DNA of 64,000 nt from Chloroflexota bacterium. Its GTDB lineage: Bacteria > Chloroflexota > UBA11872 > VXNJ01. Numbering within the stretch: position 1 is the first letter of the stretch; each line of letters opens with the position of its first letter. Shown here one piece after another: positions 7,868-14,298 of the stretch. The stretch spans positions 128,001-192,000 of the forward strand of contig OZ253449.1 of NCBI GenBank assembly GCA_965261345.1. Reading direction: 5' to 3'. A model generated the notes under the pieces. That model saw nothing but the letters and a program-made list of their open reading frames with translations. It was not told the origin of the DNA and searched no databases. The translations under genes and the position numbers were made by a program.

Positions 7868-9805
7868 ATTCACGGTAGGAACACCGGTTGCCCGATGCCC
7901 CCCGTACAGATCCCGGCGTGCGCGTTAACGCACCGGGCTCCTAGCTTGAGTATCTAACGGCAAAGCGCTGGGCGGGCCATGGGTGGCGGATTTGGACGGG
8001 CGGCCAGAGTTGGTCGCAAAGCTGGCTGATGCGCTCCCAGGTGGTGCGATCTTTGTCCGAGCGACGCTGCAGGGTGCGTTTCCAATGCCATTGCAGCCGT
8101 TGGCGGAATCGACAAAGGGACGGATAACTGGTGGGGACGGCGTAATAGTTGAGCCATCCGTTCAGCACCATCCCGAGCCATTGCCCGGTCTGCATCGGAT
8201 CATCGTGCATGCGCATACGCAGCTTCTCTTTGATCGCCTTCAGGGTGCGTCGTACTCGCTTGGCGATGGGCTTGCGTCCCAGTTTGAAGCCGCCGCTGCG
8301 GGTTCTTGAGCAGTAGTGCGTTAGGCCGAGGAAGTCAAAAGTCTCCGGACGGCTGTCGTTACGCTGGCGGCGATTCTCGATCGCGTATCTGCCGAACTCG
8401 ATCAGGCGGGTCTTGTGGGCTGCAAGCTCTAATCCGTACTCTTCTAGCCTGTCTCGCAAATCCTTTGCAAATCTGACCGCATCGCTGCGGTACTCAAATC
8501 CCAGGACGAAGTCATCGGCATACCTGACGATGTAGACCTCGCCGCTGGCCCTTTTGGGTCGCCATTCCTTGGCAAACCATGAGTCCAGGACTTTGTGCAG
8601 GTACACGTTGGCAAGCAGCGGCGATATCGGCGCCCCTTGCGGTGTTCCCTGCACGCTGTCGGATAGTTCTCCGGCTTCCATTACTCCGGTGCTCAGCCAT
8701 TTGCGGATTAGGCGCAGGACGCGGTTGTCTCCGATTCGCTCTCCCAGGAACGAGATGAGTCGCTCGCGGTCGAGATGGTCGAAGAAGCCTTTTATGTCGG
8801 CGTCAAGAATCCAGTTGACTTTTCTCCGTTCGATGGCGTAGGCCAGGGCGTCCAGCGCGTCGTGCGCTGATCTTTTTGGCCGGAACCCGTATGCGAACCC
8901 GGCGAACTCCGATTCATAGATCGGGTCAAGGATCTGTTGACACACCGCCCGCTGCAGGATCTTGTCCTCTATGGATGCGATTCCAAGCGCTCGCTTCCCG
9001 CCGTCCGGTTTGGGTATCGCTACCCGCAGGACGGGGGTCGCTCGGTATGCTCCTTTGTGCACGCGGTCTTTAAGGTCGAGAAGTTTCTCTTCCAGGTTTT
9101 CCTCGTACATCCTCCACGTGATCCCGTCGGCGCCGGGAGCGGCATTGGGTTTTAGCCCGTAGAACGCATCCCTTAGCGCGTCAAGGTCTATGTGGTGTAA
9201 GAGCGCGGTGAGTTTTCCCTCTGGGTTCTCTTTGGCGTGTTGCCGTACGCGTTCGGCTCCGGGTGACACGGGAACCCACCCCTGGGTGTAGTCCGTGCCG
9301 GTGCCTGGCGCGTTCCTCTTGCTTGCGGCCCTTTCCTCCGGCGGCTCCGCCGGGGTTTTACGCCCCATTGTTCGCCGCCTTCGCAGGTACTATGGCCGCA
9401 TCAGACTTCTGCACATCGTGCATCATCGGATTGCGAAACTCCTTCCTTCCCGATGCGGCCCCGGATCTGCGAGTGAACCGGGGTAATGCGCAGATCTCCC
9501 AGTTCCCGGCCCGGGACTTACGTACGTACATGAGTTCTTTGACACCGTCGAGCCCGGCTGACGGCTGGCCATCTATTGCCGCCGCCGGTGTTGCCTTCGA
9601 CCAGAATCACGGTCTCGGCGCTCGGGACAAACCCGATGTTTCGGTGCTCCATAGCTCTGTCCGCACGCTCCGCTGCCGACGCTTCACCGACCGTCTCGCG
9701 ACGGCCTGCGCACGGCTCGCGGGCTGATGTGGGCTGGCTCTCGCCCTTCATCCCGGGAGACTTTCACTCCTTGTCCTGGTACCAGTTGGACTGGCTGTTC
9801 TGACT
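7868..9805 (-). mobile_element. Group II intron (bacterial class E-like) inserted in IS3 orfA
   Basis: Domain V gagcccggtgcgttaacgcgcacgccgggatctg and a domain VI hairpin follow the IEP stop; exons resume the IS3 orfA sequence on both sides. Confidence 0.9.
7941..9368 (-). CDS. ltrA: Group II intron reverse transcriptase/maturase without an endonuclease domain
   Basis: APGADG, GFRPKRS, DIKGFFD, GTPQG, RYADD, FDFLG, GWLNYY. Confidence 0.97.
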   Translation of the reverse strand: MGRKTPAEPPEERAASKRNAPGTGTDYTQGWVPVSPGAERVRQHAKENPEGKLTALLHHIDLDALRDAFYGLKPNAAPGADGITWRMYEENLEEKLLDLKDRVHKGAYRATPVLRVAIPKPDGGKRALGIASIEDKILQRAVCQQILDPIYESEFAGFAYGFRPKRSAHDALDALAYAIERRKVNWILDADIKGFFDHLDRERLISFLGERIGDNRVLRLIRKWLSTGVMEAGELSDSVQGTPQGAPISPLLANVYLHKVLDSWFAKEWRPKRASGEVYIVRYADDFVLGFEYRSDAVRFAKDLRDRLEEYGLELAAHKTRLIEFGRYAIENRRQRNDSRPETFDFLGLTHYCSRTRSGGFKLGRKPIAKRVRRTLKAIKEKLRMRMHDDPMQTGQWLGMVLNGWLNYYAVPTSYPSLCRFRQRLQWHWKRTLQRRSDKDRTTWERISQLCDQLWPPVQIRHPWPAQRFAVRYSS

Positions 9806-10103
9806 TGTTCGGGCGAGTACTTTCGCTTCGCCATTGCTGTCCCTTTTCGTTGGAACCAGATTATTCACATTCCCTCTGGTACCAATGAGGCAATTGTCTT
9901 GATTGTCAATTCCGGCAGAGGTGGGGTCAGAGGGGTCCAGGAGAAAGGGGAGGATAGATCCAGCGCCCCGACCGCGGTTCATAGTGACCGCAGCCCGATC
10001 GACAGGCGATAACCGGATGCGTAATCGCCGCAATAGCCCGATCCCGGGCATGGCTTCGCCAGGGACCTTGCCCGCAAGAGCGATCGGACCTGCCCGGCGT
10101 TCA

Positions 10104-11323
<1,220 letters not shown>

Positions 11324-11516
11324 TTAGAGCAACACACGTAAAAGGATATGCGCACATGACCCAACTGTGGAAGTCGTTGTGGATCGCCTGGATCAGGATA
11401 TATCATCCCTTATACAGGCTGGCGTCGATCGTCAATTGGCAGGCGTCGCCGGTTGTCGGATCGGGCTATGGTTGCGTAACAGCTTTATCATTACTCTTTC
11501 AGGAAGGACGATGCCG

Positions 11517-11969
11517 ATGTCTGCCGCCAATGATCCCAAGATCGAGTTCCTGCGAAGCTGCGGGGCGCTCAATCCCCATCCCGAGCGGGTGGGCGACGAA
11601 CTCTTCGCCGGGCATGACTTCTTCGACCCGCGCGATCTTTGCCAGGTGCGTTACGAGATGCTGCGGCGGGTGTTTGTCGATGAACGTAGGGTGTCTGACA
11701 GCGCCCGTCTCTACGGTTACTCCCGCCCGACCTGGTACAACGTCGCCCGGGTCTACCGGGTCGGCGGCCTGGCCGGACTCCTATCCGAGCGCCCCGGTCC
11801 GCGTAAAGCGCGCAAGCTGGTCCCCGAGATCGTTTTGTTCATTGAGCAGGTGCGACGGGAGCACCCCGGTCTGGGGGCGGCGGCGCTGGCGCGGTTGGTC
11901 AACGAGCATTTCGGCGTATCGGTGCACCGCTGCAGCATCGAGCGGGCGTTGCGGCGCGCAAAAAATTAA
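11517..11969 (+). CDS. Helix-turn-helix protein of the recombinase element
   Basis: RBS aggaagga at 11501; FFDPRDL.QVRYEMLRRV...GYSRPTWY...GLAGLL...PGPR. Confidence 0.85.
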   Translation: MSAANDPKIEFLRSCGALNPHPERVGDELFAGHDFFDPRDLCQVRYEMLRRVFVDERRVSDSARLYGYSRPTWYNVARVYRVGGLAGLLSERPGPRKARKLVPEIVLFIEQVRREHPGLGAAALARLVNEHFGVSVHRCSIERALRRAKN

Positions 11970-12406
11970 CCATCCCGGACCAGAGTCCGGGTACAGCACC
12001 GCAGCCGCCGGTCGCCGCCTACGAGAAACTGCGCCGCCAGGCGCTCGCTCCCGACGGGGGCTCGGACTGGCGCAGCCTGGCGATCATCCGCCGACGAGGG
12101 ATCCCGGCCTGGCTGGCCCGGCGTCCCGCATCCACGGCCCCGGGGCCATCGTCGCCGCACCGGGCCGGATCGGCCGAACTGCTCGACATCCTGCTGGGAT
12201 TGGCGCTGGGATCGGAGTCCGGCGGTGATCGATCAGATGCAACGCAGGGTGACCGCGCAGCATCTTGCCCGCCGGGCCTTCCTGTACGTGCGGCAGTCAA
12301 CCCTGCGGCAGGTGATGGAGAACCGGGAGAGCACCCGCCGCCAGTACGATCTGCGCCGCCGGGCGCGTTCGCTGGGCTGGGCGCCGGAGCAGATCTGCGT
12401 CATTGA
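11960..12406 (+). CDS. -1-frame extension of the HTH gene (Y4bB-like small helical domain)
   Basis: Open -1 frame from the slippery site: AYEKLRRQAL...LAIIRRRGIPAWL...ELLDILLGLAL; no start codon before the helical segment. Confidence 0.6.
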   Translation, partial: KKLTIPDQSPGTAPQPPVAAYEKLRRQALAPDGGSDWRSLAIIRRRGIPAWLARRPASTAPGPSSPHRAGSAELLDILLGLALGSESGGDRSDATQGDRAASCPPGLPVRAAVNPAAGDGEPGEHPPPVRSAPPGAFAGLGAGADLRH

Positions 12407-14298
12407 CTCGGACCTGGGGCGGTCGGGAGCCGACTCGGACCGCAAGGGTTTCCAGCGTCTGGTCAGCGAGGTGTCGCTGGGGCGGGCCGGGATCGTGCTG
12501 GGCCTGGAGGTCTCGCGCCTGGCGCGCAACAACGCCGACTGGCATCGCCTGCTGGAGCTGTGCGCGCAGTCAGACACATTGATCCTGGACGAGGATGGGA
12601 TCTACAGCCCGGCCCAGTACAACGACCGCCTGCTGCTGGGCCTTAAAGGCACCATGTCGGAGGCCGAGCTGCACGTGATGAAGGCCCGCCTGCTGGGCGG
12701 AGTGCGGGCCAAGGCCGAGCGCGGCGAGCTGCGCTGCCGGCTGCCGGTGGGCTTTGTCTACGATCCGCTGGATAGGGTCGCGCTCGATCCCGACGCCCAG
12801 GTACGCGACACCCTAAAGACGTTCTTTACCGTCTACGAGCGCACCGGTTCGGCGCGGGCGGTGGTCGTCTACTTCAACACTCGCTCGCTCTCCTTCCCGA
12901 CGCGCCCCTACCACGGGCCGCGCAAGGACGAACTCTTCTGGGACCAGCTCACCCACGCGCGCGCCATCCTGGTCCTGTCACAACCCGCGCTACGCCGGAG
13001 CGTTCGCCTGGGGGCGCTATCGCACCCGGCGCGTCAACGGACGCGACCGCAGGGTACGGACGCCCCGGGACGAGTGGAGGGTGCTGATCACCGATCACCA
13101 CCCCGGTTACATCACCTGGGAGCGGTTCGAGCGCAACCAGGAGACGCTCTCGCGGTCGGCCCGTTCCTGGAGGCGCGAGGGCCAGGGCGGTCCGCCGCGC
13201 GAGGGATCGGCGCTCCTGCAGGGCATTGCCGTCTGCGGGAAATGCGGCAAACGCATGACGACCCACTATGACAATCGCGGCCGGCAACTCAGGCCCCGCT
13301 ATGTCTGTCGCCGCGAGGGCGTCGACAAGGGGCTGCCGGTCTGCCAGTCGGTTCCCGGGACGGCGATCGATGCGGCGGTCGCGGAGCTGGTGCTCGAACT
13401 TATGAATCCGCAGATGCTCGAGTTGGCGCTCTCGGCCCAGGACGAGCTGCGGCGGCGCATTCACGAGGCCGATGCATTGCGGGCCAAGGCGGTGCAGCGG
13501 CTGGAGGAGGAGGTCGACCTGGCGGGGCGACGCCATCGGATGGCCGATCCGTCCAACCGCCTGGTAGTCGATGTGCTCGAGGCCGAGTGGAACGCCTGCC
13601 TGCTGCGCCTGCAGGACGCGTCAGACGAGCAGGCCAGGCAGCGCGAGCAGGACCGGGCCGAGCTGAGCGAGCGCCAGCGCAAGCGGATCAAGGCCCTGGC
13701 GACCGACTTCCCGGCGCTCTGGAGCGACCCGGCAACCCCGGCAAAGCAGCGCAAGCGCATGCTTGGCCACCTGATCGCCGATGTGACCATCGTCAAGAGT
13801 GGGGAGATCGGCGTGGGGGTGCGCCTGCGCGGCGGCGCTGACCGCCGGTTTAAGCTTCCCCTGCCGCTGTCGGCAGCCGATCGGTACCGCACCGACCCGG
13901 GCGTGGTTGCCCTGCTCGATCAACTGCTGGCGGATCACTCCTATGCCGAGATCGCCGCGATCCTTAACCAGCGCGGCGTCCGCACCGGGCGTGGCAACGC
14001 CTTCAACGCCAGGAAGGTCTACGTGCTGCGGCGCGATCACGATCTCAAGACCAGGTATGAGCGACGGCGCGATCTGGGTCTGCTCACCGGCCGCGAGGTG
14101 GCGGCGCTCCTGGGTATAGCACCGACTATGGTCAACGGCCTGCGGCGGAGTGGACGCCTGCAGGGCGCAAACACCGGTGGCAACCGCTGGCTTTACGAGA
14201 GGCCCGCCAACCTGGGCGAACTACGATCAAGCATCCGCCGACCGGTCAGATCACCAGCCGACGGTTGCGAGTCGAACGAGGTGCAGTATGCAAGGTGA
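12225..14298 (+). pseudogene. Large serine recombinase (resolvase, recombinase and Zn-ribbon domains) with one extra base at ~12977
   Basis: YVRQST, DLGRSG, EVSRLARN, (H)NPRYAG, CGKCG..M, YVC; removing one T restores VLHNPRYAG, so this may be a sequencing error. Confidence 0.9.

What the first reader, a model, noticed from the sequence alone, without database searches (positions are those of the whole stretch)
11958..12406. Programmed -1 frameshift signal in the recombinase element
The HTH gene ends GCA AAA AAT TAA, giving an in-register A_AAA_AAT heptamer (11960-66), a 7-nt spacer and the hairpin cccggac-caga-gtccggg (11974-91). The -1 frame is open and encodes an amphipathic segment with no start codon of its own. 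This predicts short and long HTH isoforms, the long one running 180 nt into the recombinase gene. It would be a second translational control in the same element.
Basis: partly seen in the sequence, partly recalled or inferred. Interest (0 to 1): 0.7.

Follow-up and report, generated by a model that had tools for sequence, protein, structure and literature searches.

The report
Frameshift site in a recombinase transposon
A run of A's at the end of a small DNA-binding gene probably lets the cell slip into another reading frame and fuse that protein to the next one, a trick known from other jumping genes but seemingly not yet described for this widespread serine-recombinase element.

Summary
ORF1 (HTH, 11511-11969) ends GCA AAA AAT TAA, with an in-phase A_AAA_AAT at 11960-66, a 7-nt spacer and a 7-bp hairpin at 11974-91. 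The -1 frame is open from 11846 to 12406 and has no ATG/GTG/TTG before 12200.

None of these features is unusual alone in this 67% GC window; the support is comparative. The -1 frame encodes a real conserved protein, ORF2 (3163 cluster representatives). It lies between ORF1 and a large serine recombinase in a four-gene mobile element: DUF5372, HTH, ORF2, LSR.

In 121 distinct homologous loci, ORF1 ends in a run of 6-9 A's in 104. Lysine codons there are AAA:AAG 246:9, against 222:571 in the body of ORF1. ORF2 is in the -1 frame in 97, the +1 frame in 7, and never in frame. ORF2 has a start codon at an NTGA overlap in 58 of 97 and none at all in 23 of 97.

The window's clade (3 lineages) has no ORF2 start. 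It keeps the block CAAAAAATTAACC and the hairpin (one compensatory pair), and ORF2 shows dN/dS 0.37-0.63 in the -1 frame only.

Best reading (0.55): -1 ribosomal frameshifting gives a 298-aa ORF1-ORF2 fusion beside the 152-aa ORF1. Relatives with A8-A9 may use transcriptional slippage instead. The 180-nt tail into the recombinase is clade-specific. The recombinase's own frameshift is a polymorphic 1-nt insertion, not a control. No experiment exists.

The parts
11066..11323 (+). DUF5372 gene, the first gene of the element. It has no ATG/GTG/TTG in frame in this copy and abuts an IS110-family insertion.
   Evidence: Pfam PF17342, E 8e-21, profile positions 1-78 of 78; stop-to-stop ORF 10970-11323. 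The same gene precedes ORF1 in the plasmid copies.
11511..11969 (+). ORF1, a 152-aa HTH protein (HTH_32/HTH_29/HTH_28). It resembles the N-terminal DNA-binding part of IS481/IS630 transposases.
   Evidence: 523 homologues, nearly all 148-166 aa.
11960..11966 (+). In-phase slippery heptamer A_AAA_AAT. It is the local form of the family's A6-A9 tract.
   Evidence: No length variation in the contigs of 4 runs.
11967..11973 (+). ORF1 stop TAA plus the rest of the 7-nt spacer. The block CAAAAAATTAACC is identical in the three clade lineages.
11974..11991 (+). 7-bp hairpin CCCGGAC-CAGA-GTCCGGG.
   Evidence: kept in 3 of 3 lineages, one pair changed on both sides (C-G to U-A). Not more stable than the local background.
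11966..12232 (+). ORF2, conserved part, in the -1 frame of ORF1 (YExLR ... GxAAW ... LAxMAL; four predicted helices). It has no start codon of its own.
   Evidence: invariant Y19, E20, R23, G45 kept; dN/dS 0.37-0.63 in this frame only.
12233..12406 (+). Read-on of the -1 frame into the recombinase gene. It is clade-specific and probably not selected.
12225..12977 (+). Large serine recombinase, N-terminal part (Resolvase domain), in frame 0. GTG 12225 aligns with the ATG of the paralogues.
12978..12978 (+). Extra T that breaks the recombinase frame.
   Evidence: frames; run X3 lacks this letter; X2, X8 and X9 have it.
12979..14298 (+). Recombinase, C-terminal part (Recombinase, Zn_ribbon_recom and HTH_17-like domains), in frame +1.

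Best explanation
The window holds one (damaged) copy of a widespread four-gene mobile element: DUF5372, ORF1 (HTH), ORF2, and a large serine recombinase. ORF1 ends in an A-tract that the family conserves as nucleotides, not merely as lysines. ORF2 lies out of frame just behind it. In this copy and its two sister lineages ORF2 has no start codon. I think a fraction of ribosomes translating ORF1 slip back one base on A_AAA_AAT. The stop codon that follows directly and the hairpin 7 nt downstream would help. The slipped ribosomes continue in the -1 frame and make a 298-aa ORF1-ORF2 fusion beside the 152-aa ORF1. By analogy with IS1, IS3 and IS630 elements, the short protein would bind DNA alone as a regulator or competitor. 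The fusion would carry the extra helical domain needed with the recombinase, so the slip rate would set the element's activity. Shown: the anatomy, the coding status and selection of the -1 frame, the lack of a start codon, and conservation of the tract and of the clade's hairpin. Inferred: that slippage happens, that it is ribosomal here, and the roles of the two products.
For: Anatomy. ORF2 is a real protein family. The alignment A2 has invariant Y, E, R and G residues that the window keeps, and the profile finds 3163 cluster representatives at E<=1e-3. Within the clade, dN/dS in the -1 frame is 0.37-0.63, against 0.96-1.67 (frame 0) and 1.87-2.30 (frame +1). There is no ATG/GTG/TTG in the -1 frame before the conserved motif in the window, L002 or L005. 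CAAAAAATTAACC and both stem arms are identical in the three lineages, which are about 70% identical overall, and one stem pair is compensated. Family census of 121 distinct loci, the window included: an A-run of 6 or more in 104; ORF2 in the -1 frame in 97, in +1 in 7, in frame in 0; an in-phase A_AAA_AAN in 94 of 97; no start codon at all before the motif in 23 of 97. Lysine codons in the last 12 codons of ORF1 are AAA:AAG 124:3 and 122:6, against 78:317 and 144:254 in the ORF1 body. Finished genomes of cultured bacteria show the same: NCBI's annotation truncates or omits ORF2 where it has no start (Aromatoleum EbN1, Mesorhizobium, three Sinorhizobium records). S. meliloti ml59 carries two copies with one A fewer and an in-frame 246-aa ORF1-ORF2 CDS, so the fusion protein exists as an annotated reading frame. 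A6 is stable in the contigs of 4 runs from 4 studies. Precedent: IS elements use A-rich heptamers, including low-efficiency ones such as A_AAA_AAC (passages of PMC4066793), and conserved A8/A9 runs (passages of PMC1088944).
Against: No RNA or protein data exist; no RNA run was listed. 58 of 97 -1-type relatives have ATG/GTG/TTG exactly at an NTGA overlap with the ORF1 stop. A before TGA is enriched (30 of 61 against 9.7% A at third codon positions), so independent coupled translation of ORF2 is evidently selected in many lineages. 13 of the 23 'start-less' loci have CTG at that overlap. A downstream hairpin is not a family feature: median rank 0.40, 9 of 57 loci below 0.1. The window's own hairpin is no stronger than background (rank 0.35; z -1.0). 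A_AAA_AAT is not a high-efficiency motif in E. coli; its relative A_AAA_AAC is called low-efficiency in PMC4066793. Seven A-run loci and four finished Sinorhizobium records have ORF2 in the +1 frame, which a -1 ribosomal slip cannot serve. The clade evidence rests on only 3 DNA lineages. This copy is decaying, with a broken recombinase and a DUF5372 gene without a start. No clean in-frame fusion appeared among the 150 listed profile hits or the 6 'longer' hits.
Confidence: 0.55

Rival explanations
1. Transcriptional slippage. RNA polymerase adds (or drops) an A in the tract, so a share of the mRNAs encode ORF1-ORF2 in one frame and the ribosome does nothing unusual.
For: 81 of 121 loci have A8 or A9, the lengths at which slippage is known in IS elements (passages of PMC1088944). 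Run length varies by substitution at the 5' edge rather than by indels, as in that paper's IS example. No family-wide hairpin exists. Both the -1 and the +1 arrangements occur (97 and 7 loci; Sinorhizobium A9 with ORF2 in +1), and only a mechanism that can add or remove a base serves both.
Against: The window's clade has only A6 followed by T, which is below the lengths reported as slippage-prone. It has instead acquired a conserved hairpin at the spacing of a frameshift stimulator, with a stop directly after the heptamer. 94 of 97 tracts keep an in-phase heptamer, which slippage does not need, though common descent could also explain that.
Confidence: 0.12
2. Two separate proteins. ORF2 is translated on its own by termination-reinitiation at the ORF1 stop, from ATG/GTG in most relatives and from a non-canonical codon here. 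The A-tract would be an unstructured, A-rich initiation enhancer or simply a lysine tail.
For: An NTGA start occurs in 58 of 97 loci, with enrichment of A before TGA. Gene callers give about 95-aa stand-alone ORF2 proteins: 145 of the 150 listed hits are 76-123 aa. The tract lies 0-9 nt from the ORF1 stop in 85 of 97 loci.
Against: In the window clade the -1 frame has no ATG/GTG/TTG, and the only near-cognate codon (ATC 11972) is not conserved: it is CGC in L002 and GTC in L005. 23 of 97 loci have no start codon at all, and 10 of these end ORF1 with TAA or TAG, so no overlap codon exists. A lysine tail does not explain AAA:AAG of 246:9. The tract is retained where it lies 15-36 nt from the stop (10 loci).
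Confidence: 0.15
3. Relic or coincidence. In this clade ORF2 is no longer expressed, and the heptamer plus hairpin is a leftover of the family tract and a chance GC palindrome.
For: This copy is damaged (extra T at 12978; DUF5372 without a start; IS110 next door). A6 and hairpins of this strength are common in the window. The ORF2 C-terminus has lost its usual stop at the recombinase start.
Against: The L002-type paralogue has an intact recombinase, three copies at 98.7-99.8% identity, and the same signal. The -1 frame shows purifying selection among the three lineages and keeps all four invariant residues. The stem pair is compensated.
Confidence: 0.1

Closest known systems
OrfA/OrfAB -1 programmed frameshifting of IS1 and IS3-family insertion sequences (A_AAA_AAG-type heptamer, often with a downstream structure)
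   Same: An upstream ORF encodes an HTH DNA-binding protein. An A-rich heptamer sits in phase near its end. The downstream ORF is in the -1 frame without its own start, the 0-frame stop follows closely, and a stem-loop lies 7 nt downstream. The element is mobile and multi-copy. The general logic is stated in PMC5009743 (passage) and PMC4066793 (passages).
   Different: The downstream ORF is a roughly 95-aa helical domain with no Pfam, NCBIfam or PDB match, not the catalytic domain. The catalytic protein is a separate large serine recombinase, not a DDE transposase. The heptamer ends in T. Most relatives also offer ORF2 a start codon.
Transcriptional slippage on A8/A9 runs in IS elements (Deinococcus, Nostoc and other IS elements; Roseiflexus IS630)
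   Same: A conserved A8-A9 run lies in the ORF overlap, its length varies without indels, and the ORFs would be fused (passages of PMC1088944; PMC5009743). The ORF1 HTH is most like the IS481/IS630 transposase N-terminus (E 3e-12 and 4e-11, below the family cut-offs).
   Different: The window has only A6, plus a hairpin. The element is not a DDE transposon.
dnaX-type -1 frameshift cassette (heptamer, spacer, stem-loop)
   Same: The cis architecture matches: heptamer, spacer of 5-9 nt, GC-rich hairpin.
   Different: In dnaX the shift gives a shorter product, while here it gives a longer fusion. No upstream SD-like element was seen here.
Ordinary translationally coupled overlapping genes (ATGA/GTGA)
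   Same: In 58 of 97 relatives, ORF1-ORF2 (and ORF2-recombinase) overlap by NTGA, which by itself puts the next gene in the -1 frame.
   Different: The window clade ends ORF1 with TAA and has no start codon. Coupling does not explain the AAA codon bias.

Membership tests
-1 programmed ribosomal frameshift site | Slippery heptamer X_XXY_YYZ in phase with the upstream frame | tested here: met
   A_AAA_AAT at 11960-66, with codons GCA AAA AAT. An in-phase A_AAA_AAN occurs in 94 of 97 -1-type relatives.
-1 programmed ribosomal frameshift site | Stimulatory structure 5-9 nt downstream | tested here: inconclusive
   A 7-bp hairpin lies after a 7-nt spacer. It is kept in 3 of 3 clade lineages with one compensated pair. 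It is not stronger than background (rank 0.35) and is absent as a family feature.
-1 programmed ribosomal frameshift site | -1 ORF is coding, conserved and lacks independent initiation | tested here: met
   For this clade. For the family the result is mixed: no start in 23 of 97 loci, an NTGA start in 58 of 97.
-1 programmed ribosomal frameshift site | Trans-frame protein demonstrated | not testable with these tools
   No RNA holder was listed and no proteomics is available.
Programmed transcriptional slippage site | Homopolymer of about 8-9 or more A/T conserved in the ORF overlap | tested here: not met
   The window has A6. The feature is met in relatives: A8 in 54 and A9 in 27 of 121 loci.
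IS-type OrfA/OrfAB transposase arrangement | Upstream ORF is a DNA-binding HTH | tested here: met
   HTH_32, E 2.9e-9. Partial match to the IS481/IS630 N-termini.
IS-type OrfA/OrfAB transposase arrangement | Downstream frame encodes the catalytic (DDE) domain | tested here: not met
   ORF2 has no family or fold match. Catalysis lies in a separate serine recombinase.
Translationally coupled overlapping genes | Start codon of the downstream gene overlapping or next to the upstream stop | tested here: not met
   The window reads AAT TAA, and the overlapping -1 codon is TTA.
Large serine recombinase | Resolvase catalytic domain, Recombinase domain and zinc ribbon in one polypeptide | tested here: inconclusive
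   All three domains are present but split over two frames by an extra T at 12978. They are intact in L002, L005 and the contigs of run X3.
Multi-copy mobile element | Several near-identical copies in one genome and a patchy distribution | tested here: met
   The L002-type element has 3 copies at 98.7-99.8% identity. ORF1 is found in 4 of 98 genomes of the class. Several loci share one genome, and 135 plasmid records have 210 places. Element ends and target sites were not defined.

The most novel reading that the evidence does not exclude
A large, apparently undescribed family of serine-recombinase transposons controls itself with the OrfA/OrfAB logic of DDE insertion sequences, and has evolved three interchangeable recoding cassettes at the same ORF1-ORF2 junction. 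The first is an A8-A9 slippage tract serving both -1 and +1 arrangements. The second is a short A_AAA_AAT heptamer with adjacent stop and hairpin (this window's clade). The third, in Actinomycetota-type members without any A-tract, is a conserved block with an SD-like element a few bases before CGA-TGA, and ORF2 lies start-less in the +1 frame.
Probability: 0.3. Interest if true: 0.75.

Novelty: new member of a known kind. Interest (0 to 1): 0.6.

Why it matters
Recoding that fuses a DNA-binding ORF to a second ORF is a hallmark of DDE insertion sequences. The 2016 review lists IS1, IS3, IS5 and IS630, and the part I could search (first 300,000 characters) contains no word 'recombinase'. Finding the same device in a serine-recombinase element present in many phyla and in 135 plasmid records (59 Sinorhizobium, 39 Rhizobium) would extend that rule to a different transposition chemistry.

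It would explain why annotation pipelines truncate or miss ORF2. It would also give a testable handle on how these elements set their activity. Large serine recombinases are used as genome-engineering tools, so their natural accessory proteins are of practical interest.

The family also offers a natural comparison between tract-based and heptamer-plus-hairpin recoding at one homologous site.

Tried and rejected
- RNA evidence: no RNA holder was listed for the stretch, so expression and slippage could not be examined.
- Rfam on 11300-12600 at E<=1: no match.
- ORF2 function: no Pfam, no NCBIfam, no usable Atlas hit. The AlphaFold model has mean pLDDT 69.8 and four helices, with no Foldseek PDB match at E<=10.
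- In-frame ORF1-ORF2 fusions. Of the 150 listed profile hits, five are longer than 123 aa. Four of these (246-322 aa) are -1-frame read-through across ORF1, and one (152 aa) has an unrelated N-terminal extension. The 'longer' search gave 6 proteins, all frame chimeras or other joins that switch frame away from the tract; that search scored only 8000 candidates, so a blank is weak evidence. Only the two S. meliloti ml59 copies are clean fusions, and I cannot exclude a homopolymer assembly error there.
- More members of the window's clade. The metagenome scan returned nothing above 58% identity. The class-wide genome search returned only the already known L005 genome, one distant copy and one truncated copy.
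- A family-wide downstream hairpin: rejected.
- An upstream SD-like stimulator at 10-14 nt in the window: none seen by eye.
- Literature. Six searches (and 38 for recoding in general) and the main text plus two held supplementary files of PMC3711429 (one file not searchable) gave no description of this element or of recoding in a serine-recombinase element. Subscription journals are not covered.
- Gene names of pNGR234a that I recalled (y4-type) gave only irrelevant hits and are not used.

Full report
**1. The observation**

- ORF1 starts at ATG 11511 or 11517, preceded by AGGAAGGA. It encodes a 152-aa HTH protein and ends GCA AAA AAT TAA, with the stop at 11967-69.
- A_AAA_AAT (11960-66) is in phase with ORF1.
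- After a 7-nt spacer comes CCCGGAC-CAGA-GTCCGGG (11974-91), which the folding program predicts as a hairpin.
- The -1 frame is open from 11846 to the TGA at 12404-06. Its first ATG/GTG/TTG is at 12200.

As bare patterns these are not remarkable.
- A6 occurs 16 times in the window against 22 expected.
- The 76-nt fold has z = -1.0.
- The 40 nt after the tract rank 0.35 against same-size windows of the locus.

**2. What the surroundings are**

Pfam gives HTH_32/29/28 for ORF1, nothing for the -1 frame, and Resolvase, Recombinase and Zn_ribbon_recom for the gene that follows. That gene is a large serine recombinase (LSR) starting at GTG 12225.

The LSR is split over two frames. The break is one extra T at 12978. 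Contigs of run X3 lack this letter, while X2, X8 and X9 carry it. It is therefore a real, polymorphic mutation and not a second translational control.

Upstream lies a full-length DUF5372 ORF (11066-11323). It has no in-frame start codon and abuts an IS110-family transposase gene (10101-11033).

Annotated plasmids show the same four-gene unit of DUF5372, HTH, small ORF and recombinase.

The window's genome (2.39 Mb, one contig) also holds three copies of a sister element. These are about 70% identical to the window's copy in DNA and 98.7-99.8% identical to each other over 3.45-4.5 kb. Their LSR is intact.

**3. The -1 frame is a real gene**

Translating the -1 frame of the window, of L002 and of the 76% relative L005 gives similar proteins. 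Across 40 loci the alignment has invariant Y, E, R and G residues and a near-invariant W, in the pattern YExLR...GxAAW...LAxMAL. The window keeps all of them.

A profile search finds 3163 cluster representatives at E<=1e-3, and 1261 at E<=1e-10. Of the 150 listed, 145 are 76-123 aa long.

Among the three clade lineages, dN/dS over window 11969-12118 differs by frame:

| Frame relative to ORF1 | dN/dS |
|---|---|
| -1 | 0.37-0.63 |
| 0 | 0.96-1.67 |
| +1 | 1.87-2.30 |

For comparison, ORF1 in its own frame gives 0.21-0.61.

The AlphaFold model (mean pLDDT 69.8) is four helices with no PDB match.

In typical relatives ORF2 ends about 290-300 nt after the ORF1 stop, overlapping the LSR start by ATGA. 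In the window's clade it reads on about 180 nt to a TGA formed by conserved LSR codons. Three substitutions seen there in other strains are synonymous or conservative for the LSR but non-synonymous for the read-on. This tail is probably a by-product.

**4. The family-wide signal**

ORF1 has 523 homologues, and nearly all of the 120 listed are 148-166 aa and end in KK(K/N/R).

I fetched 80 loci from species genomes (599 of 600 pattern matches were relatives and the best 80 were kept). I fetched another 80 from metagenomes (512 of 599, best 80 kept).

I dropped the following:
- duplicates;
- hits not reaching the ORF1 C-terminus;
- loci with under 330 nt downstream (second set);
- in the first set, L044 and L049, where my motif search failed. 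Inspected by hand, these have A8 with ORF2 in the +1 frame.

This left 70 + 51 = 121 distinct loci, including the window itself and L002.

Results of the census:
- **A-run length.** A run of 6 or more A's lies just before the ORF1 stop in 104 of 121 loci (A6 in 6, A7 in 17, A8 in 54, A9 in 27).
- **ORF2 frame.** Among those 104, ORF2 is in the -1 frame in 97, in +1 in 7, and in frame in none.
- **Heptamer phase.** An in-phase A_AAA_AAN is present in 94 of the 97.
- **Distance to the stop.** The tract ends 0-9 nt before the ORF1 stop in 85 of the 97.

The tract is selected as nucleotides, not as lysine codons. The counts below are AAA:AAG for lysine (one search agrees when the LSR is included, 472:1209 against 127:3).

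| Region of ORF1 | Genome set | Metagenome set |
|---|---|---|
| Body | 78:317 | 144:254 |
| Last 12 codons | 124:3 | 122:6 |

**5. Does ORF2 have its own start?**

Of the 97 -1-type loci:
- 58 have ATG/GTG/TTG exactly at an NTGA overlap with the ORF1 stop.
- 66 have some start at least 8 codons before the YE motif.
- 23 have none at all. Of these 23, 13 have CTG at the overlap, and 10 end ORF1 with TAA or TAG and have no overlap codon.

A before TGA is enriched, at 30 of 61 in the genome set against 9.7% A at third codon positions. Coupled initiation is therefore really selected in many lineages.

The window's clade belongs to the start-less group. The overlapping -1 codon is TTA. The only near-cognate codon (ATC 11972) is CGC in L002 and GTC in L005.

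Finished genomes agree.
- In Aromatoleum EbN1 (A9, CCC TAA), NCBI annotates only a 54-aa stump that lacks the YE motif.
- In Mesorhizobium 131-2-5 and three Sinorhizobium records, ORF2 is not annotated at all.

**6. Which mechanism?**

Outside the clade there is no enrichment of downstream structure: median rank 0.40, and 9 of 57 loci below 0.1.

Sinorhizobium fredii NGR234, two S. meliloti strains and CCBAU 05631 have CGT-A9-CGG-TGA with ORF2 start-less in the +1 frame. The GTG that NCBI uses in NGR234 is GTA in the S. meliloti copies.

S. meliloti ml59 has two copies with A8 and one in-frame 246-aa ORF1-ORF2 CDS.

A tract of 8-9 A's whose length changes by substitution and that serves both frame arrangements matches the published picture of transcriptional slippage in IS elements (passages of PMC1088944).

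The window's clade differs. It has only A6, stable in the contigs of four runs. In its place is a fully conserved CAAAAAATTAACC, a stop directly after the heptamer, and a hairpin at 7 nt. Both stem arms are identical in three lineages that are about 70% identical overall. One pair is changed on both sides (C-G to U-A), and the loop varies freely. ORF2's N-terminal linker is not conserved as protein across the family, so protein constraint is an unlikely cause of the stem's conservation.

This is the anatomy of a -1 ribosomal frameshift site. A-rich heptamers ending in a pyrimidine are weak in E. coli yet are used by IS elements (passages of PMC4066793).

**7. Most likely working**

Shown:
- the anatomy;
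- the coding status of ORF2 and the selection on it;
- the absence of a start codon in this clade;
- nucleotide-level conservation of the tract.

Inferred:
- In this clade some ribosomes slip -1 on A_AAA_AAT and make a 298-aa fusion (152 + 146 residues) beside the 152-aa ORF1.
- ORF1 alone acts as a DNA-binding regulator and the fusion as the active accessory of the recombinase. This role follows the statement on IS elements in PMC5009743 (passage) and is not tested here.

Confidence:

| Explanation | Confidence |
|---|---|
| -1 ribosomal frameshift in this copy | 0.55 |
| Transcriptional slippage in this copy | 0.12 |
| Separate initiation of ORF2 | 0.15 |
| Relic or coincidence | 0.10 |

This copy itself is decaying, so any function is better tested on the L002-type copies.

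**8. Comparison and novelty**

The device is the known OrfA/OrfAB kind. ORF1's HTH is most similar to the N-terminus of IS481/IS630 transposases, below their cut-offs.

It fails one defining feature of that arrangement: the downstream frame is not the catalytic domain, and the enzyme is a separate serine recombinase.

I found no description of this element or of recoding in a serine-recombinase element. This rests on the searches; on the review PMC5009743 (first 300,000 characters); and on PMC3711429 (main text and two supplementary files).

I file it as a new member of a known kind, in an element family that seems undescribed.

Noticed in passing
window 12978: The large serine recombinase is broken by one extra T (..CTG T CAC AAC..). 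Contigs of run X3 lack it and have an intact frame, while the window, X8 and X9 carry it although they differ at about 22 other positions. It is a real, circulating frameshift allele and not an assembly error.
   Followed up: partly
window 10101-11323: The element's DUF5372 gene (11066-11323) has a full-length Pfam match but no ATG/GTG/TTG in frame. It directly abuts an IS110-family transposase gene on the other strand (10101-11033). A group II intron-type reverse transcriptase ORF lies at 7941-9368 (by eye, not scanned). The left end of the element may have been hit by an insertion.
   Followed up: partly
L167 (G000:C1:29000-45000) and L166 (G000:C1:1050000-1062000): The sister element occurs three times in the genome. 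Two copies share 4526 bp at 99.8% identity. The third shares 3452 bp at 98.7-98.8% and lies inverted, head to head, next to one of them. A similar adjacent inverted pair seems present in another genome (L024/L025, overlapping ranges of one contig). Element ends and target sites were not determined.
   Followed up: partly
L027, L037, L056, L073, L080 (also L022, L035, L054, L057, L075, L081, L148, L164, L176): Actinomycetota-type members have no A-tract. ORF2 lies in the +1 frame (dN/dS 0.18-0.45 there, 0.9-2.7 in the other frames). It has no start codon in L027 and L037. The block GAAAGCGAGGNNGACCGATGA, an SD-like element a few bases before CGA-TGA, is conserved. Either the SD-like element serves the ATG of the ATGA overlap, which opens the wrong (-1) frame, or this is a +1 recoding site at the stop codon, in the manner of release factor 2 genes (recalled).
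   Followed up: partly
L085, L182-L184 against L178, L181: Sinorhizobium copies have A9 with ORF2 in the +1 frame. Two copies in S. meliloti ml59 have A8 and an in-frame 246-aa ORF1-ORF2 CDS. This is either a natural fused allele produced by DNA slippage in the tract or a homopolymer error of that assembly.
   Followed up: partly
L175, L177, L180, L182-L184: NCBI annotation truncates ORF2 (54-aa stumps in Aromatoleum EbN1 and Streptomyces YIM 121038) or omits it (Mesorhizobium, three Sinorhizobium records). In pNGR234a it is named 'transposase'. The family is systematically mis-annotated because ORF2 often lacks a start.
   Followed up: no
window 12225-12228; L002 and L005 equivalents: In the window's clade the recombinase start still overlaps a TGA (GTGA/ATGA), but that TGA is no longer in the ORF2 frame, and the recombinase is in frame 0 with ORF1. 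An indel near the ORF2 C-terminus in the clade's ancestor probably uncoupled ORF2 from the recombinase and created the 180-nt read-on.
   Followed up: partly
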